Positions 18,446-60,626 of a DNA stretch of 64,000 nt are shown piece after piece (position 1 is the first letter of the stretch; the number at the start of each line of letters is the position of its first letter). A model generated the notes under the pieces. It was not told the origin of the DNA. It saw only the letters and a program-made list of their open reading frames with translations, and ran no database searches. The translations under genes and the position numbers were made by a program. The stretch is from Eledone cirrhosa (lineage: Eukaryota), in the NCBI GenBank assembly GCA_964016885.1, contig OZ024740.1, positions 235,290,001 through 235,354,000 of the forward strand, in the 5' to 3' direction.

Positions 18446-18634
18446 CCAGCATACACCAGAGATCTAAGAATACCCCCCCCCCCAAAAAAAAAACAACAAC
18501 AACAAAATGAGCCAGAATGTATTCATGTAACTGTAATCTAATGTAAAGTTGTATTCAGTTTTAAATGTTTCCTAATGTGTTTATTCCTCATGTTTTGTTG
18601 TTTTATCTTTTGTTGCAGTGAACCAAAGAAAAAT

Positions 18635-37795: not shown

Positions 37796-37899
37796 CCTTC
37801 TTTAAACCCAGAAGGCCAGAGAACATCTGACTATGTTTTCCTCAACAAATGGAAAGCTAAGAACCATCACTACATCCGTGGAGAAGTGGTCTCATTAAT
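37796..37899 (+). CDS. IMMP2L: IMMP2L second visible coding exon (104 nt)
   Basis: Acceptor TATTTCTATTTATAG, translation PSLNPEGQRTSDYVFLNKWKAKNHHYIRGEVVSL+AT, donor GTAAGT, phase 2. In frame with the previous exon; matches human [34 protein letters not shown] (recalled). Confidence 0.95.
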
Positions 37900-38436
37900 G
37901 TAAGTTGATATTTTCTTATGACTTCTTGTTCATCCATTGTACAGTAATGTCTTCTATGTCATAATTGGTGACTTAACATATTTTAATTGATGTTATAACT
38001 CCTACTGTGCTTTAACTGATGTTAAAATATCTACTATATCATAATTGATGTTTTGATATCTATCATATTTCAGCTGATACCATAACACCTATCATTTCAT
38101 ATTTCATCTCATAGCATTGGCCATGACTTAACTAATGTCATATTACATACCATAGCATAACCAATGTTATAACAAATTTAATATTTTATTTATAAAGTGT
38201 GGTTGGTGATAGGAAGGGCATCAAGCAATAGAAAACTTGCTGAACAATGGGTCAGGGGCCCCTTCAGCTGTGTTAAAGACATAACAACCTCCCTAGTGTT
38301 AGTGTCATAATTAAATTCACTTGGTAGTGCGCAAGATCATATGTGAGATTAGGCCCTTAGCCTACTTGAGTATTGACTTGGTCTGTGAAGACCCATCCAA
38401 CCCTTGCTATTAGGGAAAATGGATGTTAAATAATTG

Positions 38437-38614
38437 TTTCTATTTTTGGCACAAAGCCAGCAATTACCCCAGTGCATTACTGGCGCTTTATTTTATCGAC
38501 CCCTGTAAGGATGAAAGGCAAAGTTAACCTTGGCGGGATTTGAACTCAGAATGTAAAGGGCCATAACTCTATGCTGCAAAGCATGGTGTCTGACGCTCTA
38601 CCGATACTGCCAAT
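38437..38614 (-). mobile_element. SINE family B copy
   Basis: GGCACAAAGCCAGCAATTACCCCAGTGC...GGCAAAGTTAACCTTGGCGGGATTTGAACTCAG. Confidence 0.8.
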
Positions 38615-39303
38615 GATTTGCCAACGATTTGCTATGATAATGTTTACATATCTTGATTTATGTCATAATATATATATCCTATCATAGTTGATGTCTTTGA
38701 TACTTGTATTTTAGTTGGTGCCATAAAAATTGCTATTTCATAAATGATGTCTTGACATACTAAATTTTAATTGATGTCATGTCTTTATGTAACTGATATA
38801 TCTGCGATGCTGCAATAGCTGTCAATTTAGCCATGTTATAATTGATCTATTGTCGTAACTGATGTTGATATAGCTGCCATATACTGTAATAGATATCATG
38901 TATGCCATGGTATAACTAATGCCATGCGGTAGTAATTGATACAATGTTGAAATATCCAATATGTTGTAATTGTTATCAGAATTTATATCATATCACAACA
39001 GATGTCATGATGCCTACCACACTGTGACTGATGACATAACTACAACCACATTATAATATATGATGGCATTGATAAGCCAATAAAAGAGCTTCTATATGGT
39101 CGCTTGACCTACTAGAAATAGCAATTAGATTTTCATCAAATCACACATTGTCATCTTAAGAAAAAAAATATAGTTCCTGATATACAACAATATGTGATGA
39201 TTACAGCTGCAACACTTTTGTATATAGGCCTGCTCCACAACAATAAAAAAAAACCACATGAAAGTGCGCACTTAACTATACATATATCTCTTATATTGAA
39301 ATA

Positions 39304-40279
39304 TCTCTCTATATATAAAGATGTCTGTCTGTTTGTCTGTGTAAATCTCTAAAACTCGAAGTACCTGACCGATTTTTTTTCAAACTTTACACATGCGTTA
39401 CTTATATTTCTTGAAGTGCAATGGGCTATAAAAAATTTGACTTTTTCTGCCCGCATTAGGCGTAAAACTCAATTTTTTAGGCATTTTTAGGCTTTTCTGA
39501 GGCATAACTTAAAGATAATCCAGCCGATTCCTCGAAATTCACAGCACACATTAGTTAGTCCTCTCGCATTGCTGTGAACAAAAGATTTCCGATTCCATTA
39601 ATGGTTTCTAGGAAATTTATGAATTAGCATTGGGCATTACATGCCATTTCCATTTTCAATATAAACGCTACTTAAACATCGTAAGTAGCATATAATATTT
39701 CATTAAAAATTTGGTTTATTTAACAGAGGGCACAACACTTACTTACTTTTAAGCAGGACCATTTTCGGAGGATTGAGGAGGACCTTAAAATTTTTGTCGG
39801 AGCCCTATTGACGCTTCATGCTTTCATCACGCGCAAATCCGGGCTCTGTGTACGTTGCCGTGTTATTGACACCGTAAAACTCACGTCTGTGCTGCTTCTA
39901 CTAAGACCCCTTTTGTTGCACCTACACCACAGTATGAACGCCCTGCGCAAGTACGCCGAACAGCGGTTGTGCTAATTCCGCGGTGACCCCTTTTGTCGCA
40001 CCTTTGTTGCTGTGTAAACGCAGTGTGATTTTCTCCAAAATCATACTCTAAGATTCAGTACACTTAAAGAGTATGCAGCTGATTTTCTTCAGGTTTTGCA
40101 CATGCATGCAGATGTTTCACGATTCGAGCCTGTTGGTGTTCTACGTTTCCAGTAGATGAACAATCATTCCCTGAGAATAAGGGAATTCAAAAAGTACACA
40201 GCTACATTCCTCAATCTTTGCATATGCATGTTGCTATTTCACATTTCCTACCTTGTGCAACGCCGAGTCCTGCTGCTAG
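39304..40279 (+). mobile_element. Non-autonomous Helitron
   Basis: A|TCTCTCTATATATAAAG..(TGTC)n 5' end; CCTTGTGCAACGCCGAG...CTAG|T 3' end; inserted between A and T with no TSD; CpG-rich relative to flanks. Confidence 0.8.
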
Positions 40280-40399
40280 TATCTAATATTTTCTGCCATA
40301 TTTTAGTAAGTTATGAAGGAGAATATACATATATCTCTTATATTAAAATATATGTAATATTTTTTAGTAAGTTATGAAGGTGAATATTGGAAAGATAAA

Positions 40400-40810
40400 A
40401 GTGATAAAAGAATATACAATAGTATAAAAGGGTTTTGGGAGTGAGACACAACTGATGCATGTGGAGCAGCAGAGAAAGCTGGAGAGAATGGAAATGGCTT
40501 GGTGGTGGATGAGTGGAGTATCACTCAGAGAGAGGAAGAAACAAGGAATTGCAGTGGATGATTGGAATAGAGCTTGTGATGAATATTGTGAAGAGAAACA
40601 GAATGAGATGGATGGATCATGTGTTGAGAAAGGGTGAATGTGATGGGTCAGATGAGTATCAGAAGTGAATGTGGAAGGAAGTAGAGGAAGAAGAAAACAA
40701 AGACATGGCTAAAGATGATGGAGGTGGCAATGAAAGGCAGGGAGTGGTGAAGAGGATGCAAGCAATAGGGCAAAATAGAAAAGCTTGTTATGAGGCCTAA
40801 CAAGGCCTTA
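40400..40810 (+). mobile_element. Highly decayed RTE-like LINE 3' fragment
   Basis: GSETQ..EQQRKLERMEM..WMSGVSLRER..RMRWMDHVLR..VEGSRGR. Confidence 0.55.
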
Positions 40811-41587
40811 AAATGCTTGTAATAGATTAATACTACTGTTGAAATATCAGTAATTTTAATAATTTGAATTTTGTTTTAGCTTTCCGCCTCTCCATAGCAT
40901 AGATGCTAATACTTAAAAAATGTTTCATTGCCAAAAATGAAGTTAGTATTTCAAAAAGATTATCTTATTAACAGGTATGTTTGTGTGGTTAAACAGTTCA
41001 CTTTGCAGACACAGGATTTTAGATTCAAAATCACGTGTGTGACAGCTTAGGCAAGTGTCTTCTAGCCTACTCTCAGGTTGACCAGTTCCTTGTCAATGGA
41101 ATTTCGTAGTTGATGTAACTGTATCAGAAGTTTGTCATCTTCATTGTTTTATGTTTGTTTTGACATGGCTTAGATAGAGTTTATCACAACCTGTGTCATC
41201 TGGCACAAAAAAGCAACAGAGAAATTTTATCATGCTGCTGGTACTAGAGTGGTGGTTTCATGTGGGAGGACTATAGAATCCCCTTTACTCTGCATGAGTT
41301 CTTATTTAAAGTTACTGCCACAGTAGATTGGTAGCTTACAGAATCTACATTTCACTTATATATTCCATTGTTTGCTATGACTTGATGTCTTTTTATCAAT
41401 CACTTATCAGACAAAATTTGGTACATTTTATTGTGCCACAAATACTAGAGAGGTTGTTCAATGCAAGAGGACTAAAATGTCTCCTCTACCACCCTGATTT
41501 GTTTTTTATTCAGAATTACTGCCTTTCAAGATGGGTAGCCTGCACCTCCCAATGTGGTGCTTCATGTTGTCATCATTTGTCTTGTCA

Positions 41588-44500
41588 TACCACCCACTGC
41601 AGTCTTCTGTCTCACCACACCCACCACCCACTATAGTCCTTTGTCTCACCACACCCACCACCCACTATAGTCCTGTCTCACCACACCCACCACCCACTAT
41701 AGTCCTTTGTCTCACCACACCCACCACCCACCATAGTCCTTTGTCTCACCACACCCACCACCCACTATAGTCCTGTCTCACCACACCCACCACCCACTAT
41801 AGTCCTTTGTCTCACCACACCCACCACCCACTATAGTCCTTTGTCTCACCACACCCACAACCCACTGCAGTCTTCAGTTTCACCACACCCACCACCCACT
41901 ATAGTCCTTTGTCTCACCACACCCACCACCCACTATAGTCCTTTGTCTCACCACACCCACCACCCACCATAGTCCTTTGTCTCACCACACCCACCACCCA
42001 CTATAGTCTTTTGTCTCACCACACCCACCACCCACTATAGTCCTTTGTCTCACCACACCCACCACCCACCATAGTCCTTTGTCTCACCACACCCACCACC
42101 CACTATAGTCCTTTGTCTCACCACACCCACCACCCACTATAGTCCTTTGTCTCACCACACCCACCACCCACTATAGTCCTTTGTCTCACCACACCCACAA
42201 CCCACTGCAGTCTTCTGTTTCACCACACCCACCACCCACTATAGTCCTTTGTCTCACTACACCCACCACCCACTATAGTCCTTTGTCTCACCACACCCAC
42301 CACCCACTGCAGTCTTCTGTCTCACCACACCCACCACCCACTATAGTCCTTTGTCTCACTACACCCACCACCCACTATAGTCCTTTGTTTCACCACACCC
42401 ACCACCCACTGTAGTCCTTTGTCTCAATACACCCACCACCCACTATAGTCCTTTGTCTCACCACACCCACCACCCACTATAGTCCTTTGTCTCACCACAC
42501 CCACCACCCACTATAGTCCTTTGTCTCACTACACCCACCACCCACTATAGTCCTTTGTCTCACCACACCCACCACCCACTATAGTCCTTTGTCTCACTAC
42601 ACCCACCACCCACTATAGTCCTTTGTCTCACTACACCCACCACCCACTATAGTCCTTTGTCTCACTACACCCACCACCCACTATAGTCCTTTGTCTCACC
42701 ACACCCACCAACCACTATAGTCCTTTGTCTCACTACACCCACCACCCACTATAGTCCTTTGTCTCACCACACCCACCACCCACTATAGTCCTTTGTTTCA
42801 CCACACCCACCACCCACTATAGTCCTTTGTCTCACCACACCCACCACCCACTATAGTCCTTTGTCTCACCACACCCACCACCCACTGCAGTCTTCTGTCT
42901 CACCACACCCACCACCCACTATAGTCCTTTGTCTCACCACACCCACCACCCACTATAGTCCTTTGTCTCACCACACCCACCACCCACTATAGTCCTTTGT
43001 CTCACCACACCCACCACCCACTATAGTCCTTTGTCTCACTACACCCACCACCCACTATAGTCCTTTGTCTCACTACACCCACCACCCACTATAGTCCTTT
43101 GTCTCACCACACCCACCATCCACTATAGTCCTTTGTCTCACCACACCCACCATCCACTATAGTCCTTTGTCTCACCACACCCACCACCCACTATAGTCCT
43201 TTGTCTCACCACACCCACCACCCACTATAGTCCTTTGTCTCACCACACCCACCACCCACTATAGTCCTTTGTCTCACCACACCCACCACCCACTATAGTC
43301 CTTTGTCTCACTACACCCACCACCCACTATAGTCCTTTGTCTCACTACACCCACCACCCACTATAGTCCTTTGTCTCACAACACCCACCACACCCACCAC
43401 ACCTACCACCCACTGCAGTCTTCTGTCTCACCACACCCACCACCCACTATAGTCCTTTGTCTCACCACACCCACCACCCACTATAGTCCTTTGTCTCACC
43501 ACACTCACCACCCACTGCAGTCTTCTGTCTCACCACACCCACCACCCACTATAGTCCTTTGTCTCACCACACCCACCACCCACCATAGTCCTTTGTCTCA
43601 CCACACCCACCACCCACTATAGTCCTTTGTCTCACCACACCCACCACCCACTATAGTCCTTTGTCTCACCACACCCACCACCCACTATAGTCCTTTGTCT
43701 CACTACACCCACCACCCACTATAGTCCTTTGTCTCACTACACCCACCACCCACTATAGTCCTTTGTCTCACCACACCCACCACCCACTGCAGTCTTCTGT
43801 CTCACCACACCCACCACCCACTATAGTCCTTTGTCTCACTACACCCACCACCCACTATAGTCCTTTGTCTCACTACACCCACCACCCACTATAGTCCTTT
43901 GTCTCACCACACCCACCACCCACTGCAGTCTTCTGTCTCACCACACACACCACCCACTATAGTCCTTTGTCTCACCACACCCACCACCCACTATACTCCT
44001 TTGTCTCACCACACCCACCACCCACTATAGTCCTTTGTCTCACCACACCCACCACCCACTATACTCCTTTGTTTCACCACACCCACCACCCACTATAGTC
44101 CTTTGTCTCACCACACCCACCACCCACTATAGTCCTTTGTCTCACCACACCCACCACCCACTGCAGTCTTCTGTCTCACCACACCCACCACCCACTATAG
44201 TCCTTTGTCTCACCACACCCACCACCCACTATAGTCCTTTGTCTCACCACACCCACCACCCACTGCAGTCCTTTGTCTCACCACACCCACCACCTACTAT
44301 AGTCCTTTGTCTCACTACACCCACCACCCACTATAGTCCTTTGTCTCACTACACCCACCACCCACTATAGTCCTTTGTCTCACCACACCCACCACACCTA
44401 CCACCCACTGCAGTCTTCTGTCTCACCACACCCACCACCCACTATAGTCCTTTGTCTCACCACACCCCCACCCACTATAGTCCTTTGTCTCACCACACCC

Positions 44501-47500
44501 ACCACCCACTATAGTCCTTTGTCTCACTACACCCACCACCCACTGCAGTCTTCTGTCTCACCACACCCACCACCCACTATAGTCCTTTGTCTCACCACAC
44601 CCACCACCCACCATAGTCCTTTGTCTCACCACACCCACCACCCACTATAGTCCTTTGTCTCACCACACTCACCACCCACCATAGTCCTTTGTCTCACCAC
44701 ACCCACCACCCACTATAGTCCTGTCTCACCACACCCACAACCCACTGCAGTCTTCCGTCTCACCACACCCACCACCCACTATAGTCCTTTGTCTCACCAC
44801 ACCCACCACCCACTATAGTCCTTTGTCTCAATACACCCACCATCCACTATAGTCCTTTGTCTCACCACACCCACCACCCACTATAGTCCTTTGTCTCACC
44901 ACACCCACAACCCATTGCAGTCTTCTGTCTCACCACACCCACAACCCACTGCAGTCTTCTGTTTCACCACACCCACCACCCACTATAGTCCTTTGTCTCA
45001 CCACACCCACAACCCATTGCAGTCTTCTGTCTCACCACACCCACAATCTACTGCAGTCTTCTGTTTCACCACACCCACCACCCACTATAGTCCTTTGTCT
45101 CACCACACCCACAACCCATTGCAGTCTTCTGTCTCGCCACACCCACAACCCACTGCAGTCTTCTGTTTCACCACACCCACCACCCACTATAGTCCTTTGT
45201 CTCACCACACCCACCACCCACTATAGTCCTTTGTCTCAATACACCCACCACCCACTATAGTCCTTTGTCTCACCACACCCACCACCCACTATAGTCCTTT
45301 GTCTCACCACACCCACCACCCACTATAGTCCTTTGTCTCACCACACCCACAACCCATTGCAGTCTTCTGTCTTACCACACCCACCACCCACTATAGTCCT
45401 TTGTCTCACCACACCCACAACCCATTGCAGTCTTCTGTCTCACCACACCCACCACCCACTATAGTCCTTTGTCTCACCACACCCACAACCCATTGCAGTC
45501 TTCTGTCTCACCACACCCACCACCCACTATAGTCCTTTGTCTCACCACACCCACAACCCATTGCAGTCTTCTGTCTCACCACACCCACCACCCACTATAG
45601 TCCTTTGTCTCACCACACCCACAACCCATTGCAGTCTTCTGTCTCACCACACCCACCACCCACTATAGTCCTTTGTCTCACCACACCCACAACCCATTGC
45701 AGTCTTCTGTCTCGCCACACCCACCACCCACTATAGTCCTTTGTCTCACCACACCCACAACCCATTGCAGTCTTCTGTCTCACCACACCCACCACCCACT
45801 ATAGTCCTTTGTCTCACCACACCCACCACCCACTGCAGTCTTCTGTCTCACCACACCCACCACCCACTATAGTCCTTTGTCTCACCACACCCACCACCCA
45901 CTTTAGTCCTTTGTCTCACTACACCCACCACCCACTATAGTCCTTTGTCTCACCACACCCACCACCCACTATAGTCCTTTGTCTCACCACACCCACCACA
46001 CCTACCACCCACTGCAGTCTTCTGTCTCGCCACACCCACCACCCACTATAGTCCTTTGTCTCACCACACCCACCACCCACTATAGTCTTTTGTCTCACTA
46101 CACCCACCACCCACTATAGTCCTTTGTCTCACTACACCCACCACCCACTATAGTCCTTTGTCTCACCACACCCACCACCCACTATAGTCCTTTGTCTCAC
46201 TACACCCACCACCCACTATAGTCCTTTGTCTCACCACACCCACCACCCACTATAGTCCTTTGTCTCACCACACCCACCACCCACTATAGTCCTTTGTCTC
46301 ACCACACCCACCACCCACTATAGTCCTTTGTCTCACCACACCCACCACCCACTATAGTCCTTTGTCTCACCACACCTACCACCCACTATAGTCCTTTGTC
46401 TCACCACACCCACCACCCACTGCAGTCTTCTGTCTCACCACACCCACCACCCACTATAGTCCTTTGTCTCACCACACCCACCACCCACTATAGTCCTTTG
46501 TCTCACCACACCCACCACCCACTGCAGTCTTCTGTCTCACCACACCCACCACCCACTATAGTCCTTTGTCTCACCACACCCACCACCCACTGCAGTCTTC
46601 TGTCTCACCACACCCACCACCCACTATAGTCTTCTGTCTCACCACACCCACCACCCACTATAGTCCTTTGTCTCACTACACCCACCACCTACTATAGTCC
46701 TTTGTCTCACCACACCCACCACCCACTATAGTCCTTTGTCTCACTACACCCACCACCTACTATAGTCCTTTGTCTCACCACACCCACCACCCACTATAGT
46801 CCTTTGTCTCACCACACCCACCACCCACTATAGTCCTTTGTCTCACCACACCACCACCCACTATAGTCCTTTGTCTCACCACACCCACCACCCACTATAG
46901 TCCTTTGTCTCACCACACCCACCACCCACTATAGTCCTTTGTCTCACCACACCACCACCCACTATAGTCCTTTGTCTCACCACACCCACCACCCACTATA
47001 GTCCTTTGTCTCACCACACCCACCACCCACTATAGTCCTTTGTCTCACCACACCCACCACCCACTATAGTCCTTTGTCTCACCACACCTACCACCCACTA
47101 TAGTCCTTTGTCTCACCACACCTACCACCCACTATAGTCCTTTGTCTCACCACACCTACCACCCACTATAGTCCTTTGTCTCACTACACCCACCACCCAC
47201 TATAGTCCTTTGTCTCACCACACCCACCACCCACTATAGTCCTTTGTCTCACCACACCTACCACCCACTATAGTCCTTTGTCTCACCACACCACCACCCA
47301 CTATAGTCCTTTGTCTCACCACACCCACCACCCACTGCAGTCTTCTGTCTCACCACACCCACCACCCACTATAGTCCTTTGTCTCACCACACCCACCACC
47401 CACTGCAGTCTTCTGTCTCACCACACCCACCACCCACTATAGTCCTTTGTCTCACCACACCCACCACCCACTGCAGTCTTCTGTCTCACCACACCCACCA

Positions 47501-50500
47501 CCCACTATAGTCCTTTGTCTCACCACACCCACCACCCACTATAGTCCTTTGTCTCACCACACCCACAACCCATTGCAGTCGTCTGTCTCGCCACACCCAC
47601 CACCCACTATAGTCCTTTGTCTCACCACACCCACCACCCACTATAGTCCTTTGTCTCACTACACCCACCACCCACTATAGTCCTTTGTCTCACCACACCC
47701 ACCACCCACTATAGTCCTTTGTCTCACCACACCCACCACCCACTATAGTCCTTTGTCTCACCACACCCACCACCCACTATAGTCCTTTGTCTCACCACAC
47801 CCACCACCCACTATAGTCCTTTGTCTCACCACACCTACCACCCACTATAGTCCTTTGTCTCACCACACCACCACCCACTATAGTCCTTTGTCTCACCACA
47901 CCCACCACCCACTGCAGTCTTCTGTCTCACCACACCCACCACCCACTATAGTCCTTTGTCTCACCACACCCACCACCCACTGCAGTCTTCTGTCTCACCA
48001 CACCCACCACCCACTATAGTCCTTTGTCTCACCACACCCACCACCCACTGCAGTCTTCTGTCTCACCACACCCACCACCCACTATATTCCTTTGTCTCAC
48101 CACACCCACCACCCACTGCAGTCTTCTGTCTCACCACACCCACCACCCACTATAGTCCTTTGTCTCACCACACCCACCACCCACTATAGTCCTTTGTCTC
48201 ACCACACCCACCACCCACTATAGTCCTTTGTCTCACCACACCTACCACCCACTATAGTCCTTTGTCTCACCACACCCACCACCCACTATAGTCCTTTGTC
48301 TCACCACACCCACAACCCATTGCAGTCTTCTGTCTCACCACACCCACCACCCACTATAGTCCTTTGTCTCACCACACCCACAACCCATTGCAGTCTTCTG
48401 TCTCACCACACCCACCACCCACTATAGTCCTTTGTCTCACCACACCCACAACCCATTGCAGTCTTCTGTCTCACCACACCCACCACCCACTATAGTCCTT
48501 TGTCTCACCACACCCACCACCCACTGCAGTCTTCTGTCTCACCACACCCACCACCCACTATAGTCCTTTGTCTCACCACACCCACCACCCACTGCAGTCT
48601 TCTGTCTCACCACACCCACCACCCACTATAGTCCTTTGTCTCACCACACCCACCACCCACTGCAGTCTTCTGTCTCACCACACCCACCACCCACTATAGT
48701 CCTTTGTCTCACCACACCCACCACCCACTATAGTCCTTTGTCTCACCACACCCACCACCCACTATAGTCCTTTGTCTCACCACACCCACCACCCACTGCA
48801 GTCTTCCGTCTTACCACACCCACCACCCACTATAGTCCTTTGTCTCACCACACCCACCACCCACTATAGTCCTTTGTCTCACCACACCCACCACCCACTA
48901 TAGTCCTTTGTCTCACCACACCCACCACCCACTATAGTCCTTTGTCTCACCACACCCACCACCCACTGCAGTCTTCCGTCTCACCACACCCACCACCCAC
49001 TATAGTCCTTTGTCTCACCACACCCACCACCCACTATAGTCCTTTGTCTCACCACACCCACCACCCACTGCAGTCTTCCGTCTTACCACACCCACCACCC
49101 ACTATAGTCCTTTGTCTCACCACACCCACCACCCACTATAGTCCTTTGTCTCACCACACCCACCACCCACTATAGTCCTTTGTCTCACCACACCCACCAC
49201 CCACTATAGTCCTTTGTCTCACCACACCCACCACCCACTGCAGTCTTCTGTCTCACCACACCCACCACCCACTATAGTCCTTTGTCTCACCACACCCACC
49301 ACCCACTATAGTCCTTTGTCTCACCACACCCACCACCCACTATAGTCCTTTGTCTCACCACACCCACCACCCACTATAGTCCTTTGTCTCACCACACCCA
49401 CCACCCACTATAGTCCTTTGTCTCACCACACCCACCACCCACTGCAGTCTTCCGTCTCACCACACCCACCACCCACTATAGTCCTTTGTCTCACCACACC
49501 CACCACCCACTATAGTCCTTTGTCTCACCACACCCACCACCCACTGCAGTCTTCCGTCTTACCACACCCACCACCCACTATAGTCCTTTGTCTCACCACA
49601 CCCACCACCCACTATAGTCCTTTGTCTCACCACACCCACCACCCACTATAGTCCTTTGTCTCACCACACCCACCACCCACTATAGTCCTTTGTCTCACCA
49701 CACCCACCACCCACTGCAGTCTTCTGTCTCACCACACCCACCACCCACTATAGTCCTTTGTCTCACCACACCCACCACCCACTATAGTCCTTTGTCTCAC
49801 CACACCCACCACCCACTGCAGTCTTCTGTCTCACCACACCCACCACCCACTATAGTCCTTTGTCTCACCACACCCACCACCCACTATAGTCCTTTGTCTC
49901 ACCACACCCACCACCCACTATAGTCCTTTGTCTCACTACACCCACCACCCACTGCAGTCTTCTGTCTCACCACACCCACCACCCACTATAGTCCTTTGTC
50001 TCACCACACCCACCACCCACTATAGTCCTTTGTCTCACCACACCCACCACCCACTGCAGTCTTCCGTCTTACCACACCCACCACCCACTATAGTCCTTTG
50101 TCTCACCACACCCACCACCCACTATAGTCCTTTGTCTCACCACACCCACCACCCACTATAGTCCTTTGTCTCACCACACCCACCACCCACTATAGTCCTT
50201 TGTCTCACCACACCCACCACCCACTGCAGTCTTCTGTCTCACCACACCCACCACCCACTATAGTCCTTTGTCTCACCACACCCACCACCCACTATAGTCC
50301 TTTGTCTCACCACACCCACCACCCACTGCAGTCTTCTGTCTCACCACACCCACCACCCACTATAGTCCTTTGTCTCACCACACCCACCACCCACTATAGT
50401 CCTTTGTCTCACCACACCCACCACCCACTATAGTCCTTTGTCTCACTACACCCACCACCCACTGCAGTCTTCTGTCTCACCACACCCACCACCCACTATA

Positions 50501-50885
50501 GTCCTTTGTCTCACCACACCTACCACCCACTATAGTCCTTTGTCTCACCACACCCACCACCCACTGCAGTCTTCCGTCTCACCACACCCACCACCCACTA
50601 TAGTCCTTTGTCTCACCACACCCACCACCCACTATAGTCCTTTGTCTCACCACACCCACCACCCACTATAGTCCTTTGTCTCACCACACCTACCACCCAC
50701 TATAGTCCTTTGTCTCACCACACCCACCACCCACTGCAGTCTTCTGTCTCACCACACCCACCACCCACTATAGTCCTTTGTCTCACCACACCTACCACCC
50801 ACTATAGTCCTTTGTCTCACCACACCCACCACCCACTGCAGTCTTCCGTCTCACCACACCCACCACCCACTATAGTCCTTTGTTT
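41588..50885. repeat. 34-bp satellite, about 270 copies, two interspersed variants
   Basis: CTCACCACACCCACCACCC-ACTATAGTCCTTTGT (A) and -ACTGCAGTCTTCTGT (B); decays into ~25-bp units up to ~51135. Confidence 0.97.
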
Positions 50886-52297
50886 CATTACACTCACCAC
50901 CTATTGTGACCCTTTGTCCCACTGCACAATCCACTATAGTCCTTCATCTCATCACACCACCCAGTTCTTCTCACTATGTGTTCATCTCATTTCAGTCTTT
51001 CATTTTGCCACCTACCTCAGTCCTTTGTCTTGCCACCCTCTATGGTCCTTTGTCTTGCCACTCTCTATGGTCCTTTATCTTGCCACCCCCTGTGGTCCTT
51101 TGTCTTGCCACTCTCTGTGGTCCTTTCTCTTGCCCCCCTTTTTTCTTTCCATGCTCTGTCATAGCCCTTCATCACACCACTGCTGCAGTTCTTTATCTAA
51201 CCAACACTTCAGTTAACAAACCAATTGAAGCAAAAATCTGAATAGCAGTCCAGCAAGTGGAGTTCAATTATATTAAAAATTAGTGTAGATGTAGAAGTTA
51301 GAATATAGTGGGTGAAGGAGTTATGTCAAAACTGGTAGTAGAGGTAGAAGGTTTGTTTATGATTAAACCAATCTAAAATCTGGTGTTTATGTTGGCCCTT
51401 TATGTCATGTAACTTAGTGGTTTAAACAAATAGAGATTGATGTACCAGACTGAAATAAATACTAGGGTTGATTTGGTTGGGTTTAAATACCTCAGCATAA
51501 CTGTATTTTCATGACTGTGATTAGTAAAAAAAATATCTGATATTTAGAATTTAATCTTCTATCATTGTTGTTGTACATGCCATAGCATTTATCTAGTATA
51601 AGACGTATATGTTATTAAATGTCATAACAGTTATCACATTGTAACATAAGCCTAAACCTATCTGTGATTATGTCCCAACATATATACATCTATCACAAAG
51701 CAGTAATTCACTCATGTTTATGGTTGGGGAGGTGTTCATCTCTGATAGACTTCAATAGTCAATTATTGGCTACATCTGCTGCTGAATTATCTCTAGCTGA
51801 GATGATTCAGAGCCAATAATATCAACATTAGCATCATCACTAATTTTAAATTTAAGCAACCAATCTTTTCTTCTTATATTAAGATGCTAAACCTCTAGAC
51901 TTCTAAAAAGACAAAAATAAAAAAACACCAAACAAATAAATAAAAGGATTGTCACAGTTGAAATAATGTTTAAGTATGAGTTTAGAAAGATTTAATTAGG
52001 AAGGGAAACATGTGTTTAGAAATAAGCAGAACGTAGTGTTTAGAAAATTGACATGTATATAATATAAATAACCATCAAAGCAGTTTTTATAATAGCAAAA
52101 CCATATTGTTCATAACAACCATCACAAATATATTCACTTCATTAACCCTTTTGATACCCAACAGCTTGAAACTGCCACTAATCTACAATAGAATACAATA
52201 TTCTTTTAAAATATTTATACTTTAAATCTTCCATCATAATTTTATGTAAGAAACTTTTTTGAGATATGCTCCAATCACCAGCTTAAAAATGAGAAAT

Positions 52298-52646
52298 GTT
52301 CTGTTTGTTGGCCTATTGGATGCCCCTTCATATAAAATACCCCCTGGTTTTACAAGGAATTTTGAGAAAATAAGAATTTTAGTACATTTCTTCATAGATT
52401 TATTTTAAATTGTTTCATTGTTTTTTCAGAAACTCTTATATAAGTTTGACATAATTTTGCTTATATAAATTGTATTGTATGACTTACTGTATTAGTAATA
52501 CTAATAGTAATACAAAGTAAATTCTTGTAACCATGATTGTCCTCACCCTTTGTTTGGCCTCCCATTGGTGATACGGGCATATTGGACACAGAGAGTTTTT
52601 ATGTTTTTTTTTAAAAGTGTGTCTAATAGACCAACAAATATGGTAA
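52298..52646. mobile_element. Tc1/pogo-like MITE nested in a TTAA-family-1 MITE
   Basis: TTTGTTGGCCTATTGGATGC ... GTGTCTAATAGACCAACAAA inverted ends; the host element continues on both sides. Confidence 0.5.
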
Positions 52647-52764
52647 ACTATATTACTAAACCTCTCAAAATTCTTGATTATTTTCAACATATTTGGAAAA
52701 TTATAGGCAGTGTTTTTCATTAACAGTATGGTAACTAAACAGTTAACAACATGCTATTTAAGTT

Positions 52765-53150
52765 ATCAGTACACTGGTGTTACGGTGTCAATTGGCACCA
52801 TACTGATGATTAAATTATTAGGTGACCAGTGTTTAGGTGGTCTGTACACTGGTGTTTAGGTGGTCAGTACACTAGTGTTTACGTTGTCAGTTCACTAGTG
52901 TTTAGATGGTCAGGGCACTAGTGTTTAGGTTGTCAGTTCACTAGTGTTTAGATGGTCAGGGCACTAGTGTTTAGGTGGTCAGTACACTAGTGCTTAGGTT
53001 GACAGTTCACTAGTGTTTAGATGGTCAGGGCACTAGTGTTTAGGTTGTCAGTACACTCTAGTGTTTAAGTTATTAGCACAGTTACATCTGTGTTGTCAGT
53101 ATACTATCCTTTAAGTTGTCAGCACTGTAGCATTTATGTTGTCAGCATAG
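52765..53150. repeat. ~23-bp minisatellite (GTCAGTACACTAGTGTTTAGGTG)
   Basis: Read directly. Confidence 0.8.
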
Positions 53151-53450
53151 TAGAGTACAAGTATTCAATTTGTCAATACATTAGTGTTAACCCTTTTGTT
53201 ACTGTATTTCTAATGATATACACTATGTGTATTATTAATTTAAAAAATTTGAAGAATTTAATGAAATAATTAGCCATTTCTTTAGTAAGTTAATGTTTCA
53301 AACATTACTTAATAAAAATTTCTTAAATAAAGTTATGATGGAAGATTTTAATATAATTATGGATTTTAATGTTCATTTTCTATGCTAGCAAAGATTGGAC
53401 ATGTCTTTACAAACTGAGTCAGCACTCAAGGGCAACTAACCTCTCAGTAG

Positions 53451-53603
53451 CAGAGTGGGATTTATGTATAAGCTAAACAAGCTATAGCTTAGGGCCCCAC
53501 AAAAAACAGCAACAATTTGTCGCTGACATAGGACATCTGGACATATAAAGGGCCCCATTATCTCAAATAGCTTAGGGCCTCATCAAATCTAAATCCGGCC
53601 CTG
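53451..53603. mobile_element. hAT-type MITE with perfect 8-bp TSD
   Basis: CTCAGTAG at 53443-53450 and 53604-53611; TIRs CAGAGTGGGATTTA / TAAATCCGGCCCTG. Confidence 0.85.
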
Positions 53604-53777
53604 CTCAGTAGCCTCACTTGAGTACTGACTCAGGTTGTGAAAACCCATTGAGCCCTTGTTTAGCACAGGGGAAACATATTAAAAATGATGATGATGTGTC
53701 TCATATACTAACTTGCAATAACAAAAATTAAAACACAACTGCTAGAAAAAAGATTGAAGAAATTTTAAAAGAAAATC

Positions 53778-53783
53778 TTTATT
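53778..53783 (-). terminator. Candidate polyadenylation signal of the LRRN gene
   Basis: AATAAA on the minus strand ~200 nt after the stop, followed by T/GT-rich sequence. An alternative AATAAA lies at 53873-53878. Confidence 0.45.
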
Positions 53784-53980
53784 CATATTTTTTTTTGTCA
53801 GATGAAGAAATATTTTGATACATATATTTAGTTACACAGATTGCTTTTTATGGGACATTACAAACAAAACATTTTATTATTGCCTTGATTTATATAGCTT
53901 TGCATTGAAAGTTTTGGAAAATTTGGTGCGTTCTTTAGAAAACATGGGAGTTTTATGAACTTTGGGAAATTTTGAAATGG

Positions 53981-56149
53981 TCAAGCTTGAGAATGTGAAA
54001 TGAGAGATGTCCTTGATGAACAGATTGGTGTACTGGGAGGATGGTAGAGATTTTCCAGAGGAATATGGGACAGAGGCTCAATTCTGTCATGACCAAATGG
54101 TTCTTCATATTCTTTTCTTTTCCGGAAGCGCCTGGCAACTGCAATGAAGCAGATGACAGTAAGTGTAACACTAACTGCCACAATGATTCCCATCACCACT
54201 TTCACATCTACTATTTTGGTAATTCCAGATTTGTCTGCTTCGAGTTTTGTTGTTGCATTTATACAATGAAGTTTCAACAGTTCTGAGTTGGTTCGGTACA
54301 AAATACACAGCTCATACATGGTATGTGGCTTCAACCCTGTTATCGTGCAACGATGCATGCGTGATTTCAGGTAAATAATGCTGTACTGGCTGTCTTTGAC
54401 ACTTTCTCTGTAGTGGATTTGATATCTGTCCAGTAGCATGAGTGATTCACTTCCATTAAGAATAATAGTGATGTAAGTATTGGAAGTCTTGCCAGTTATA
54501 ATGTTTAGCCTACCTGACAAGACTTCAACTGTTGCAGATCTTGTGTCATTACCCTTGAAGTTCTCTGCAACACACTTGTAACTCCCTGAATTGTTGAGAC
54601 GGGCAAATCGGACGTAGTATATAGTATTATTTGTCTCAGTTTGTTTTTCCGGATTAGTTTGGTTATTTTTGGGTCCTTTGACCACTGACCAATGGATGCG
54701 TGGCACAGGTACACCAATAGCTAAACATTCTAGAGAAATTGGTTCCCCTAGAGAGGTTTTAAAGCGTTTTGGAAATGAAGGGAGTGTTGTGGGAGGACAG
54801 AATTTTGGGATTTCTTCTATATGGAGCTCACTCAGCAGTGTTTTGTTCTTTGGGAAATCACAGATGATTTTATTAACATCGTGGAACTGTATTCTGCTTT
54901 TGTTACCAGTGCTAGCTAGTTCCTCTTTGATCCAATGGATATTACAGTCACACCTCAGTGGGTTGTGGTATAAGTGAATGTTAGTGCAATTTGGAAGGCT
55001 TGCTTTTAGCGTGTAAGGTAGTGCCCACAACTTGTTATTGTGCAGATAGAGTTTCTGGAGATTCGGCACCTGGCTGAAGGCATTTGGATGGATGAAGAGC
55101 AAATTTTTATTATCATGCATTTGCAGGATAGTCAGTTTTGACAGGTGATGGAATGAATTATTTTGAATACTTTTCAGAAGGGGTAAAAAACTTAGTGATA
55201 ACTCACGTATGTCGAGATGGTGAAATTCCCCCGAGTGTATAGTTTCAAAAGAGTTTGCATCTAATATCAAGATATCCAGGCTGCGCAAATACCTTACCTC
55301 ATTTGATGGGATGCTAGTAAGTCGGTTATTGGACAGATTTAACACACACAGTTTATTCAATCCCCGGAAAGCGTTTGAGTCTATCATTCTGATTTGGTTG
55401 CCAGTTAAATTGAGTGTTGAAAGAAGTGGCAATTCTCTGAATAAATCATTGCTCAATTTTCTCAGATTGTTCTGTGATATACGCAGCTCATTAACAGACT
55501 TGATTCTCTGAAACCAGTCAGGGTTCACTGAAATTAATCTGTTACCATCTAAATTTAGCACTTGAAGGTTGTTCAGTCCTCCAAATGCATCTTTCCCAAT
55601 TGTATGTAATCGGTTATAAGATAAGTCTAGTACCTTAAGGTTTTTCAGTCCAGTGAAAGCACCATCCTGCAAAGTTTTTAATAAATTATTATGTAAATTT
55701 AATTCTTTCAGTAATTCATAAAAGGAGAACTGCCAGTGATTATTAAATTTGCTAATCTGGCTGGAGGAGAGATCAAGAATTTTTAGATTTTTCAGATGAG
55801 GTAATTCCTGGACAATTTTAAATTTGTTTTTGGACAATAGAAAAGCTTCTGCTAAATTATTGGATATATTTGGCATTGAAACCAAATTGATGTTGCTACA
55901 ATTAATTGTTTTTAGATTCTTATAGTTAGTGTAAGAAACCAATTCACATGTGCAGTTTGTTGCACAGTGTGTTGACCATGGACTTCTTAATGGATTATCT
56001 CGAATTGGCTGCGGATTGGATGCCAGCACTTGATTGCTGGTAATATTCTCACTTTTATTATTGTCTCTATTGTTGGTAATTCCATGGACAGAATTGATAA
56101 TGGCAATGAGTAAGAGCACACCTAGCAGACTGTATACAGGTGACCTCAT
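53981..56149 (-). CDS. LRRN: Leucine-rich repeat neuronal protein (LRRN/NLRR family, LRRN1/2/3-like), 722 aa, single coding exon
   Basis: Signal peptide, LRRNT (CATNCTC), ~12 LRRs, LRRCT (NPLRCDC), Ig (C..W..YKC), FN3 (ITGLKPHTMYELC), TM (VVMGIIVAVSVTLTVICFIAV), basic stop-transfer. Tail motif IPLENLYHPP resembles vertebrate LRRN IPLNELYPP (recalled). Confidence 0.92.
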   Translation of the reverse strand: MRSPVYSLLGVLLLIAIINSVHGITNNRDNNKSENITSNQVLASNPQPIRDNPLRSPWSTHCATNCTCELVSYTNYKNLKTINCSNINLVSMPNISNNLAEAFLLSKNKFKIVQELPHLKNLKILDLSSSQISKFNNHWQFSFYELLKELNLHNNLLKTLQDGAFTGLKNLKVLDLSYNRLHTIGKDAFGGLNNLQVLNLDGNRLISVNPDWFQRIKSVNELRISQNNLRKLSNDLFRELPLLSTLNLTGNQIRMIDSNAFRGLNKLCVLNLSNNRLTSIPSNEVRYLRSLDILILDANSFETIHSGEFHHLDIRELSLSFLPLLKSIQNNSFHHLSKLTILQMHDNKNLLFIHPNAFSQVPNLQKLYLHNNKLWALPYTLKASLPNCTNIHLYHNPLRCDCNIHWIKEELASTGNKSRIQFHDVNKIICDFPKNKTLLSELHIEEIPKFCPPTTLPSFPKRFKTSLGEPISLECLAIGVPVPRIHWSVVKGPKNNQTNPEKQTETNNTIYYVRFARLNNSGSYKCVAENFKGNDTRSATVEVLSGRLNIITGKTSNTYITIILNGSESLMLLDRYQIHYRESVKDSQYSIIYLKSRMHRCTITGLKPHTMYELCILYRTNSELLKLHCINATTKLEADKSGITKIVDVKVVMGIIVAVSVTLTVICFIAVARRFRKRKEYEEPFGHDRIEPLSHIPLENLYHPPSTPICSSRTSLISHSQA

Positions 56150-56294
56150 TCTTCATTCTATGCTGACTTGAAGTGAATTATAAAACCATAAATCGTACAG
56201 TGTTGCATGCTGCTTCTGTTTGGATTACTGCTTCATCATTCCAGGTGAAATATTTCCTCTTGAGCAGTCACCATCTCTTGTAACCATAGAATAT

Positions 56295-56332
56295 CTGTAA
56301 TGAACACAAAGAATAGAAATCAGCAGAGAAAT
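56295..56332 (-). promoter_or_regulatory. Splice acceptor for the LRRN coding exon
   Basis: Minus strand TTTCTCTGCTGATTTCTATTCTTTGTGTTCATTACAG|ATATT, 145 nt upstream of the ATG; implies further non-coding exon(s) to the right. Confidence 0.7.
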
Positions 56333-57394
56333 GGATTACTACATAATTTCTCTGATAGAGATTTTTAACACTTTCATTGCCAACCTGCTCAAAACTGGCT
56401 CTTGGACTAAGATACAAAACCACCAATTTTAAAGGGTTTATATTTAAATTAGAATATTCCAATATTATTTTATATAAGAACCATATGTAAAGTTACTAGC
56501 TTAATAATTAAATAATTCATAAGTTTAGTAAATCACTAAAAATTCTTCATTAAATCACTTAAAATTCTTCATTAATTAATTGAAATAGTGTATTTTATTA
56601 GAAATATGGCCATGTAAGGGTGATCCAAATACACCACATATGTGATGAATTTTTCAAACTGTTCTAGCTATCCCATATTCTTTTCTGGCATATTATATCC
56701 AAAACTGAGTTATACAATATATTTGTTTCTAAAAACAGTTGGTAGATTTAGTTGCTATTGCTGGCAGGCTGGGAAAATCACTTAAAAAACAAACAAGCAT
56801 ATTACACAAAACAACATGGAAAGATAAATAACAACCCAATTACTCGATAAAAATAGCCAACTCAACAGAATATAACTGAACATCAAAAAACTAAATAAGA
56901 AAATATCAAAGACAATAAATCATAGAAAAACATGGCATGAATAACATTGTGGTACAGATAGATACAGGAAACATGCTCTAACTACCTTAGAAACATACTA
57001 ATTCAGTGATACTACAGTATTTGTAATTCTAAATGAGGATATATCAATTCAAAGTGAGAATAACGATTTCTAAATGAGTTCATATTACTTTAAAATTGAC
57101 AATATCATTTCATAGTAAAAATAGCTCATGTCACAATAACAAAACCTAAACTTAATTTAATTAGCCAAGAATACATAACGTATCTTCTTACAGAAAAAAA
57201 TCAGTGGCAGAGTATATTATAAACAAAACAAAAAGACTGCTCCTTTTTAACCAGTCATTATAGCTCATTTTTTAAAATGGAATTATTGCATTGATAAAAT
57301 CTGATGTAATGTGCAGCTTCTAAAACCATTGCATGGATGTATATTTTAGGCAAAGTGTGACATTTAATCCTTTAAGAATTAAACTGCTTATTCT

Positions 57395-57605
57395 TTAACC
57401 CTTTAGTATTTAAACTGGCCGTATCCAGCCAGAATTCTCTTACCTCTTTCTGTTCAAACCAGCTGTAACTGGTCACTCATTGTGATGTTAAGGTATTGTT
57501 CTCAAAATAAATATCAAAATCTCATAGATTCAATTATGTAAAGTAAAGCCTTTACCATGAAAATATAATAGTAAATATAGAGTAATGTAAATACTAAAGG
57601 GTTAA
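57395..57605. mobile_element. TTAA-type MITE family 2, second copy
   Basis: TTAA|CCCTTTAGTATTT ... AAATACTAAAGGG|TTAA, perfect TIRs. Confidence 0.85.
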
Positions 57606-57664
57606 ACAGTGTTTTTATAATGCCTAGACAAACAGCATCAAGTGAATATTGAGCAAAGTATGTA

Positions 57665-57997
57665 GACGCAAATGTTTCCATTGTTTGATCAACTGCACTG
57701 TGTACTCATGAAATTAATGTGTAAGTGGCTGAGTATTCCACAGGCATGTGAACTTGTGTCATAATTCTCAGGGTGATTTAGTATGCCATGCTGTTTAACA
57801 AGGTTGGCCATTTCAATTACTGGTTCAATCCACTGAATGAGCTTCCACACAGTTGCTGTTTACTCAGTTTCACTCACAAGGCTTGGATTGATCAAAGGCT
57901 ATATATGGTAAGTGACAGTTGCCCAATATACCATGCAATGGGATTGAACCCAGAATCCTATGATTCTTAAATAAACTTTTTAATCATTCGGCCATAC
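57665..57997 (-). mobile_element. SINE family A-related copy, decayed
   Basis: 3' body is the reverse complement of 9870-10020; tRNA-like head near 57940-57997. Confidence 0.65.
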
Positions 57998-58019
57998 TGG
58001 GTTCACATAAGAACAATAT

Positions 58020-58470
58020 ACCTTGACTGACATAGTGACACTGGCACATGTTGACAACATGACCTAATACTGTGATACAGGTTCATACTAATGTGACCTA
58101 TTTAACACAGTGATATTGGTATATACTGACATGACCTAATTAATGTTGTGACAATGGTATACAATGTGACCTAATTAACATTGTGATACAGGTACAGTGA
58201 CAATTTGACCTAATTGACATTGTGACACAATTACAGTGACCTATTCAATACTGTGATATAGATATATAGTAATGTGACCCAATTAACACTGATACTGGTA
58301 TACAGTGACAACTTGACCTAATTAATATTGTGACACAGGTACAGAGTGACCTATTTAATACTGTGATATAAATATATAGTGACAATGTGACCCAATTAAT
58401 ACTGTGGTACAGGTATATAGTGACAACATAATCTAATTAATATTGTAATACAGGTATATTCTGACAACTG
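58020..58470. repeat. Degenerate ~35-40-bp minisatellite (TGACCTAATTAACATTGTGATACAGGTA)
   Basis: Read directly. Confidence 0.75.
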
Positions 58471-58521
58471 AACATCTATCACAATATAAATAGGATATTG
58501 AACACTTTGGAAAATATTACA

Positions 58522-59160
58522 TCTATAAAGTTCCTGTCTGTTTGTTTGTTCACAAACTCCTCCTATGGTTTTGGAGATAGACCCCCATAACCATATATAT
58601 TCTGAAACTACATTGCCCAGGGTACTTGGATAAGTATATTTCATTTTAATCAAAGGGTTCCCCAGGGGCACAAACCCCTGCTGAAAATTTTTTCCCTTCA
58701 ATTTATATGAAATTTAAACCATAGGTAAATGACAAGATATGATGCCTATTCACAAAAATTTCAGCAAATTTCAATAATATTAAGACACCCTAATGGGGGT
58801 TAAACCCCTTATTAGGGTTCCCCGGGGGCACAAACCCCCTCTGAAAATTTTTTCCCTTTGATTTATATGAAATTTAAACCATAGGTAAATGACAAGATTT
58901 GATGCCTATTCACAAAAGTTTTGAATTGATATTTTGAAAAAAAATTATTTACAAGAAACAAAATAAGAATAAGATTTAATAATGTAATTTTGATTTGATA
59001 TAAAACAAAAAATAATGTTTTCCAATTTTTCATGCATTGCATTTTGAGTAATATTGAAATGCAGTTTTTCTCCATAAATTATATCACTGATTTAAAATCA
59101 ATCATCATTTTCTCACAAAAAAATGTGTGAAATGCAGCAGGACGCAGGTAATTCGGCTAG
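58522..59160 (+). mobile_element. Second non-autonomous Helitron, with an internal ~110-bp duplication
   Basis: A|TCTATAAAG..TGTCTGTTTGTTTG 5' end; GCAGCAGGACGCAGGTAATTCGGCTAG|T 3' end; 58654-58768 is repeated at ~58815-58920. Confidence 0.65.
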
Positions 59161-59189
59161 TATACTATAAATATATGAAACTATTGAAA

Positions 59190-59900: not shown

Positions 59901-60074
59901 GAAAACTGCACCCAGTCAAGTGGTCCTCCTCATCATTATCATCGTTTTACGCCTGCTTTTCTATACTTGCATGGGTTGGGTGGGTTTCCCTCCTCAACTT
60001 CCACTCTCATGATGTACCTGCATACAAACATGAAAAGGTGGATATGCTCCAAATCTGCTCTCTCCCCTCTCATA

Positions 60075-60562: not shown

Positions 60563-60565
<3 letters not shown>
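60075..60565 (+). mobile_element. RTE 3'-UTR-derived element with tandem subrepeats, followed by (CA)n at 60565-60624
   Basis: Same structure as 19790-20210; ends GGAAAATGGACGTTAAACATTGATGATGATGAT. Confidence 0.7.

Positions 60566-60626
<61 letters not shown>

What the first reader, a model, noticed from the sequence alone, without database searches (positions are those of the whole stretch)
37796..56294. LRRN gene nested antisense in the same IMMP2L intron as human LRRN3: a candidate bilaterian-ancient nested gene pair
Seen: two spliceable IMMP2L exons on +, no further IMMP2L exon (the Lys-containing KR.I..EGD box) found up to 64000, and an intact LRR-Ig-FN3-TM gene on - at 53981-56149. Established (recalled): human LRRN3 lies antisense in IMMP2L intron 3, the intron after the exon ending RGDIVSL, a locus studied in Tourette syndrome and autism. 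Inference: this apparently cephalopod sequence has the same host, intron, orientation and guest family. That points to nesting older than the protostome-deuterostome split, kept in a lineage known for heavy genome rearrangement, and suggests a cis-regulatory constraint. I do not know whether this has been reported for molluscs.
Basis: partly seen in the sequence, partly recalled or inferred. Interest (0 to 1): 0.9.

Follow-up and report, generated by a model that had tools for sequence, protein, structure and literature searches.

The report
Ancient LRRN gene nested in IMMP2L
In this octopus-type genome a nerve-cell surface gene (LRRN-like) lies backwards inside a 412,000-base intron of the mitochondrial peptidase gene IMMP2L, as LRRN3 does in humans, and an annelid worm also has the two genes as neighbours, so the arrangement likely predates the split between vertebrates and molluscs.

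Summary
Confirmed and extended. Two IMMP2L exons (18619-18739, 37796-37899, +) and an intact 722-aa LRR-Ig-FN3-TM gene (53981-56149, -) are in the window. The three missing IMMP2L exons lie 0.39-0.55 Mb beyond it on the same chromosome and strand, and the five exons give an open 171-aa frame. The LRRN-like coding exon therefore sits antisense in a 411,724-nt intron, the equivalent of human intron 3 (human exon boundaries recalled). Its architecture and nearest Atlas clusters are LRRN1/3; no tree with vertebrate LRRNs was possible. Of six other species where both genes could be placed, three octopods and the annelid Owenia have consecutive accessions, one octopus shares the contig, and the limpet Patella caerulea has them on different contigs. 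Best reading: one nesting event before the protostome-deuterostome split. It is likely kept mainly because no single break frees the guest without cutting the host; a cis-regulatory constraint is plausible but untested. Ten literature searches found no invertebrate report; the key microsynteny supplement was unreadable. This scan had not noted this pair before, only an analogous one (BTBD6/BRF1). It is a new member of a known kind: ancient microsyntenic pairs.

The parts
18619..18739 (+). IMMP2L exon A (first coding exon found; ATG at 18635, 105 coding nt, holds the catalytic-Ser motif)
   Evidence: 94% identical to O. sinensis IMMP2L residues 1-35
37796..37899 (+). IMMP2L exon B (104 nt, ends in phase 2); 5' border of the host intron
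37900..64000 (+). first 26 kb of the 411,724-nt IMMP2L intron B-C, which ends at G000:C1:235739623; exons C, D and E lie at C1:235739624-689, 235902560-662 and 235903175 onward
   Evidence: one 200-N gap at C1:235428508, beyond the LRRN coding exon
53981..56149 (-). LRRN-like gene, whole coding sequence in one exon (722 aa: signal, LRRNT, about 12-13 LRR, LRRCT, Ig, FN3, TM, short tail)
56150..56294 (-). 5' untranslated part of the LRRN coding exon, after the acceptor AG at 56296-56295; further 5' exon(s) inferred, not located
   Evidence: acceptor; contigs of three runs stop at 56296, the DNA-like run continues
53759..53980 (-). LRRN 3' untranslated region with AATAAA at 53878 and 53783
41589..50901 (.). 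34-bp minisatellite, 274 copies, filling over half of the space between exon B and the LRRN 3' end

Best explanation
An intact LRRN-like gene lies antisense inside the 412-kb intron after the 104-nt exon of an intact IMMP2L gene, and this nesting was likely inherited from the common ancestor of vertebrates, molluscs and annelids. Shown here: both genes, the exon order, the intron, the orientation. Inferred: a single-coding-exon LRRN gene entered this intron once, before the protostome-deuterostome split (possibly as a retrocopy). Inferred mechanism of retention: a topological trap. An inversion or translocation with one break between guest and host cuts IMMP2L, so the pair can part only by host loss, host relocation or retrocopy, or duplication with differential loss. 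Those are the exceptions seen or reported: frog, Patella, and vertebrate LRRN1/LRRN2. Enhancers of LRRN in the host introns would add to the constraint; they are untested. The two proteins (a mitochondrial inner-membrane peptidase and a neural cell-surface LRR protein) are predicted to be functionally unrelated.
For: Five IMMP2L exons in order on C1 (+), canonical AG/GT at all four introns, 171 aa without internal stop, 160 of 171 identical to O. sinensis IMMP2L. There is no gap between exon B and the LRRN coding exon. The guest matches the curated LRRN1-3 architecture and size (707-730 aa, 12-13 LRR, Ig, FN3, TM; PMC2235866 supplement file 2). The seven top-ranked Atlas rows are chordate LRRN3/LRRN1 clusters (0.98-0.99), ahead of rows for other LRR-Ig-FN3 families such as LRIT. 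NCBI names the orthologues LRRN1-like or LRRN3 in molluscs, a nemertean and a brachiopod. One close copy in G000. Human LRRN3 is nested antisense in IMMP2L intron 3 (PMC3565204, PMC2913944), and the pair is also in coelacanth and/or zebrafish (PMC3933685 Table 1). Of 6 species with both genes placeable, 4 have consecutive or near-consecutive accessions (O. sinensis, O. bimaculoides, Argonauta, Owenia) and 1 shares the contig length (O. vulgaris).
Against: Patella caerulea: LRRN KAK6175977.1 on a 78.4-Mb contig, IMMP2L KAK6165684.1 on a 44.0-Mb contig, so only 1 of 2 non-octopod invertebrates shows linkage. Owenia shows adjacency by accession order, not nesting or intron identity. No invertebrate deuterostome or arthropod could be scored. 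No vertebrate LRRN, LINGO, LRFN, LRIT or tartan/capricious sequence was in my tree. The Atlas score gap to the next families is small (0.99 against 0.97-0.98), and the FN3-TM-tail part alone ranked FNDC9/FNDC5 first and an LRRN1 fragment 17th. LRR genes nest repeatedly and independently in vertebrates (PMC3565204, PMC3933685). Human exon sizes are recalled, not from a call. The wider vertebrate neighbours were not found nearby (DOCK_N match on C6; FGE-sulfatase matches on C12, C24, C3).
Confidence: 0.8

Rival explanations
1. The nesting is ancestral, but it is kept chiefly as a genomic regulatory block: enhancers of LRRN are spread through the IMMP2L introns, and IMMP2L is the bystander.
For: In humans LRRN3 is listed as GRB target with IMMP2L, DOCK4 and DOCK4-AS1 as bystanders (PMC6906185 Table 1). 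The host intron is the longest of four here (19, 412, 163, 0.5 kb), with about 393 kb on the 5' side of the LRRN coding exon. Long bystander introns are a GRB prediction (PMC3514665).
Against: No conserved non-coding element or enhancer was tested. The intron holds many retroelement ORFs and simple repeats, which alone can explain its size. Nesting predicts retention without enhancers. Patella has separated the genes. Four short metagenome LRRN loci share no non-coding similarity with the intron (weak test).
Confidence: 0.35
2. Convergence: an LRR-Ig-FN3-TM gene entered the same IMMP2L intron twice, once in spiralians and once in vertebrates.
For: Single-coding-exon LRR genes often nest in large introns of unrelated hosts (PMC3933685 Table 1; PMC3565204). 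Human LRRN1 is nested in another host, SUMF1. No invertebrate deuterostome is scored, and Patella is unlinked.
Against: The intron is 1.4e-4 of the genome, about 7e-5 with strand. With some hundreds of human nested pairs (number recalled), my arithmetic gives about 0.03 chance matches over all pairs. Host, intron, strand and guest family all agree, and an annelid shares the linkage.
Confidence: 0.07
3. The guest is not an LRRN orthologue but another LRR-Ig-FN3 family, so the likeness to human LRRN3/IMMP2L is partly superficial.
For: No tree with vertebrate LRRNs. The FN3 match is under Pfam's cut-off. A fly/worm/mammal survey found no fly gene in the Lrrn1-3 cluster (PMC2235866). The C-terminal part alone is not LRRN-specific in the Atlas.
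Against: 12-13 LRR + Ig + FN3 + TM at about 710 aa is the LRRN1-3 layout, and LINGO and LRRC4 lack FN3. Atlas top rows and NCBI names agree. LINGO1 chains in the PDB score only about 125 bits against 401-457 for the closer non-cephalopod hits (different databases, so a rough comparison).
Confidence: 0.06
4. Assembly artefact or truncated host: the LRRN gene only appears to be inside IMMP2L.
For: One 200-N gap lies in the intron. No RNA junction from exon B to exon C was laid here. Several Octopus records end after exon B.
Against: The gap lies 82 kb beyond the LRRN coding exon, and exon B to LRRN is gap-free. Exons C-E follow in order with matching phases. Full-length IMMP2L models exist in O. 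sinensis, O. bimaculoides and Argonauta, on contigs of the same length as, or with accessions next to, their LRRN.
Confidence: 0.02

Closest known systems
Human/vertebrate IMMP2L-LRRN3 nested pair (7q31.1; PMC3565204, PMC2913944 and PMC6906185, passages read; PMC3933685, passages and section 14)
   Same: Host IMMP2L, a very large third intron, antisense guest of LRRN architecture.
   Different: One close LRRN copy here instead of three. The coding exon is 16 kb from exon B and 393 kb from exon C, whereas human LRRN3 lies far from exon 3 (recalled). DOCK was not found nearby. The papers read describe it only for vertebrates.
Conserved ancestral microsyntenic pairs and ancient genomic regulatory blocks (PMC3514665, passages read, supplement not readable; PMC7530604, passages and supplement search)
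   Same: Two unrelated genes linked across phyla; a developmental gene beside a long-intron housekeeping gene; the link kept in one copy after vertebrate genome duplications.
   Different: Here the partner is inside the bystander and is a cell-surface protein, not a transcription factor. Only three lineages are scored, short of the four that define a CAMP. IMMP2L is absent from the main text of PMC3514665 and from the supplement of PMC7530604.
LRRTM/alpha-catenin nested genes (PMC3933685)
   Same: Neural LRR transmembrane gene nested in a large intron of an unrelated host, with lineage-specific losses of host or guest.
   Different: That nesting arose in jawed vertebrates (adjacent, not nested, in lamprey; no invertebrate LRRTM). 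This one reaches molluscs and probably annelids.
Iroquois-Sowah block, dismantled in tetrapods by retrogene replacement (Maeso et al. 2012; only the title was seen, in a reference list; the rest is recalled)
   Same: A bilaterian-wide pair with an escape route through relocation of the bystander, a possible model for Patella.
   Different: Not a single-exon guest in one intron; enhancers were shown there (recalled) and are not shown here.

Membership tests
IMMP2L (peptidase S26, Imp2 type) | Closer to IMMP2L than to IMMP1L | tested here: met
   160 of 171 identical to O. sinensis IMMP2L; exon B scores 92-183 against four IMMP2L proteins and 27 against this genome's IMMP1L
IMMP2L (peptidase S26, Imp2 type) | Intact spliced frame with the Ser and Lys catalytic motifs | tested here: met
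   no internal stop, both motifs present (their catalytic role is recalled)
IMMP2L (peptidase S26, Imp2 type) | Intron positions equal to the human gene | tested here: inconclusive
   Exon sizes 104, 66 and 103 nt equal the human sizes as recalled. Two fish isoforms diverge exactly at the D-E junction. No human gene structure was available in a call.
IMMP2L (peptidase S26, Imp2 type) | Peptidase activity in the mitochondrial inner membrane | not testable with these tools
   needs an assay
LRRN1-3 (NLRR) | Signal, LRRNT, 12-13 LRR, LRRCT, one Ig, one FN3, TM; 707-730 aa | tested here: met
   definition (722 aa, 13 spaced LRR motifs by a loose pattern, fn3 at E 5e-4 but under the cut-off)
LRRN1-3 (NLRR) | Nearest named vertebrate family is LRRN | tested here: met
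   Atlas ranks 1-7 are LRRN3/LRRN1 clusters; the C-terminal part alone is not specific
LRRN1-3 (NLRR) | One clade with vertebrate LRRN1-3, apart from LINGO, LRFN, LRIT and tartan/capricious | not testable with these tools
   none of these sequences came back; the tree has only LRIG, TLR, CHADL, ALS-like and chaoptin outgroups
LRRN1-3 (NLRR) | Neural expression | not tested
   runs are coded and have no tissue labels
Opposite-strand nested gene pair | Guest coding sequence wholly inside one host intron, on the other strand | tested here: met
Opposite-strand nested gene pair | Guest promoter and 5' exons also inside that intron | tested here: inconclusive
   a 5' piece of about 137-141 nt is implied but was not located
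Opposite-strand nested gene pair | Host transcript spliced across the guest | tested here: inconclusive
   no junction reads laid; full-length models in three octopods join B to C
Conserved ancestral microsyntenic pair (Irimia et al. 2012) | Linked in at least four major lineages | tested here: inconclusive
   three scored as linked (vertebrates from papers, octopods, Owenia), one mollusc unlinked
Genomic regulatory block | Very long bystander intron | tested here: met
   411,724 nt, though repeat-rich
Genomic regulatory block | Conserved non-coding elements and enhancers for the target in bystander introns | not testable with these tools
   no second cephalopod genome or chromatin data held

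The most novel reading that the evidence does not exclude
IMMP2L-LRRN is a regulatory block of the last common bilaterian ancestor: the IMMP2L introns have carried neural enhancers for an LRRN gene for over half a billion years and kept them through the coleoid genome reshuffle. Octopus and Owenia would then be models for the idea that human IMMP2L deletions act through LRRN3, and Patella and frog would be natural experiments in escaping the block.
Probability: 0.3. Interest if true: 0.72.

Novelty: new member of a known kind. Interest (0 to 1): 0.5.

Why it matters
It moves a human neuropsychiatric-risk locus architecture, described only for vertebrates in the papers I could read, back to early bilaterians. 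It also shows that LRRN-type proteins, which have no fly member in an earlier survey, are widespread in molluscs, annelids, a nemertean and a brachiopod. The pair gives a clean test of whether old nested genes persist through shared enhancers or through geometry alone, since lineages that kept and lost it both exist. The kind of thing is not new: about 600 ancient gene pairs are already catalogued, and this one may be in a table I could not open.

Tried and rejected
Motif and IMMP1L-based searches of the window plus 200 kb found no exon C; the O. sinensis protein found it. No RNA holder listed on record; the laid runs are 'RNA?' or of unknown kind, so the stop at 56296 is a weak hint only. The LRRN 5' exon and promoter were not located. 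Ten metagenome loci (1.8-14.5 kb), 6 of them with clear LRRN-like genes, hold no IMMP2L exon, but they are too short to count. The profile search's top 150 were mostly giant repeat proteins; 25 new near-full-length hits were examined, none shown to be vertebrate. No PDB entry named LRRN1-3 is among the 60 of 214 matches shown. A structure prediction did not finish. Alternative 3' tails of short Octopus isoforms gave only noise. Intron ORF screen: only complex ORFs of 150 aa or more were listed, and 15 were scanned with Pfam: 2 reverse transcriptase, 1 weak match under its cut-off, 12 none; spliced genes with short exons would be missed. Rfam on the window: one borderline tRNA. Name searches for IMMP2L in supplements of PMC7530604, PMC9023564, PMC4729200, PMC8809688 and PMC8851819 (one file cut) gave 0, but tables keyed by gene ids would not show. 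The PMC3514665 supplement and bioRxiv supplements could not be read. Paper searches; none listed an invertebrate IMMP2L-LRRN pair. The species was not determined; an octopod is inferred from 88% and 86% identity to Octopus and Argonauta LRRN.
Full report
Observation. The window holds two exons of IMMP2L on the + strand: exon A at 18619-18739 (ATG at 18635) and exon B at 37796-37899, each with AG and GT borders. It also holds a 722-aa open frame on the - strand at 53981-56149. Pfam gives leucine-rich repeats, one Ig domain and a weak FN3 domain (20.7 bits, cut-off 25). A hydropathy scan shows an N-terminal signal-like stretch and one TM stretch at about residues 649-672. The window is G000:C1:235290001-235354000 in a 3.0-Gb genome. 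The best named hits are Octopus bimaculoides (88%) and Argonauta hians (86%), so the animal is an octopod; I did not determine the species.

The nesting. Motif searches of the next 200 kb found no further exon. A search of the genome with O. sinensis IMMP2L (P0124) found all five coding exons on C1, + strand, in order. Exon C is 66 nt at 235739624-689, D is 103 nt at 235902560-662, and E starts at 235903175. Joined, they give 171 aa without internal stop, 160 of 171 identical to P0124; the introns are 19,056, 411,724, 162,870 and 512 nt. The LRRN-like coding exon starts 16 kb into the 411,724-nt intron. The only assembly gap (200 N) lies 82 kb further on, so exon B and the guest are contiguous. 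The host is IMMP2L, not IMMP1L. The exon sizes 104, 66 and 103 equal the human ones as I recall them; no call gave the human structure, but two fish isoforms diverge at the same D-E junction. No second host-type gene was seen in the intron, by a screen limited to long ORFs.

Transcription. No run on record as RNA was listed. Of 4 runs laid, contigs from three studies (X21, of unknown kind, with 0 differences; X1 and X13, guessed RNA, other species) stop at 56296, which is the AG acceptor. The DNA-like run X22 continues through it. X21 and X1 carry about 137-141 extra letters at what I read as the 5' end. This is a weak hint that the gene is spliced to an upstream non-coding exon; that exon and the promoter were not located.

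Identity of the guest. The curated LRRN1-3 layout is signal, LRRNT, 12-13 LRR, LRRCT, Ig, FN3, TM, 707-730 aa, while LINGO and LRRC4 lack FN3 (PMC2235866, supplement file 2 part 2). The window protein fits this. In the ESM Atlas, ranks 1-7 are chordate LRRN3/LRRN1 clusters at 0.98-0.99, with other LRR-Ig-FN3 families just behind at 0.97-0.98. The FN3-TM-tail part alone was not specific. Full-length orthologues named LRRN1-like or LRRN3 by NCBI occur in gastropods, bivalves, a chiton, a nemertean and a brachiopod, and an unnamed one in Owenia. In a FastTree tree of 35 rows they group apart from LRIG, TLR, CHADL, ALS-like and chaoptin proteins, with Limulus and P0190 on the stem. No vertebrate LRRN, LINGO, LRFN, LRIT or tartan/capricious sequence was returned, so the decisive tree could not be built. 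The genome has one close copy.

Other animals. No eukaryote genome other than G000 can be read here, so I used accession order as a proxy, assuming gene models are numbered along the contig; the octopods act as a positive control. Six species had both genes placeable. O. sinensis: LRRN XP_029634809-10, IMMP2L XP_029634811-12. O. bimaculoides: XP_014784822-23 and XP_014784825-27 (824 not seen). Argonauta: GAB1597809 and GAB1597808. Owenia fusiformis, an annelid: IMMP2L CAH1784816.1 and LRRN-like CAH1784817.1 on the same 42,456,855-nt contig. Patella caerulea: different contigs (78.4 and 44.0 Mb) and distant locus tags. So 4 of 6 are consecutive or nearly so, 1 shares a contig, 1 is unlinked; outside octopods it is 1 of 2. 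For many species only one partner was returned (for example Haliotis, Mytilus, Lingula, Ptychodera, Strongylocentrotus), and they are not counted. Adjacency in Owenia does not prove nesting, though host-before-guest order is what nesting would give, as in Argonauta. Ten short metagenome loci were uninformative.

Vertebrates, from papers. LRRN3 is nested antisense in IMMP2L intron 3 (PMC3565204 and PMC2913944, passages). [quoted passage not shown] It is tabulated as a GRB with LRRN3 as target (PMC6906185, passages). LRRN1-3 are ohnologues (PMC7530604 supplement; one search showed two of three rows). PMC4785540 and PMC13490043 (passages) gave no exon sizes.

How it most likely works. Host, intron, strand and guest family agree between octopod and human, and an annelid shares the linkage. 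The intron is 1.4e-4 of the genome, so even over some hundreds of human nested pairs (number recalled) a chance match is expected about 0.03 times. Common descent is the simplest reading. For retention I favour geometry: one break between guest and host must fall inside the host and destroy it, so large-scale rearrangement such as the coleoid reshuffle (PMC9023564, passages) cannot separate the pair. Escape needs host loss, host relocation or duplication, which fits frog, Patella and vertebrate LRRN1/LRRN2. Shared enhancers may add to this, and the human GRB call and the 393 kb of intron 5' of the coding exon are compatible with it, but nothing here tests it.

Novelty. Ancient gene pairs are a known kind: 595 unrelated pairs in PMC3514665 (passages), whose main text does not name IMMP2L or LRRN and whose supplement I could not read. 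Ten paper searches and five supplement searches showed no invertebrate report of this pair; id-keyed tables and subscription journals are not covered. Public annotations already hold both genes side by side in octopods and Owenia. This scan had no note on the pair but one on an analogous pair, BTBD6 in BRF1 (unchecked). Verdict: real, probably bilaterian-ancient, a new member of a known kind; interest 0.5.

Noticed in passing
L001:1453-1935 (G000:C7:11406843-11407325, +): IMMP1L has an uninterrupted 160-aa coding frame and no other copy was found. Human IMMP1L is multi-exon and lies in the PAX6-ELP4 block (recalled), so this may be a retrogene replacement.
   Followed up: partly
P0005 and P0311 (Patella caerulea records): LRRN-like and IMMP2L are on contigs of different length with distant locus tags (SNE40_014349, SNE40_022565): a likely loss of the nesting, and the IMMP2L branch is fairly long (0.96).
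   Followed up: partly
window 41589-50901: A 9.3-kb array of a 34-bp unit (274 copies, 91% matches, strong C/G strand skew) between exon B and the LRRN 3' end.
   Followed up: no
P0122, P0123, P0360, P0361, P0301: Several Octopus IMMP2L records end after exon B with unrelated tails, and one starts at exon C. This may reflect an assembly split at the giant intron, or real short isoforms like human exons 3a/3b.
   Followed up: partly
L054:871-3282; L057:9941-12352: Two metagenome LRRN-like loci have the frame broken in the Ig region, suggesting an intron gained in the coding sequence, unlike the single open frame in L052 and L053.
   Followed up: no
P0001 residues about 698-707: A short conserved tail motif is in 21 of 25 LRRN-like proteins and 0 of 10 other LRR proteins. 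Its likeness to vertebrate LRRN tails is recalled and untested.
   Followed up: partly
L045:2461-5880 (-); L009:10-2888 (-): Long open retroelement reverse-transcriptase frames inside the host intron.
   Followed up: no
window 13878-13948 (+): Borderline tRNA match (30.3 bits, cut-off 29), possibly a tRNA-derived repeat.
   Followed up: no
P0190: A 1260-aa unnamed protein with a near-exact tandem copy of the LRR-Ig-FN3 ectodomain: a recent duplication or a fused gene model.
   Followed up: no
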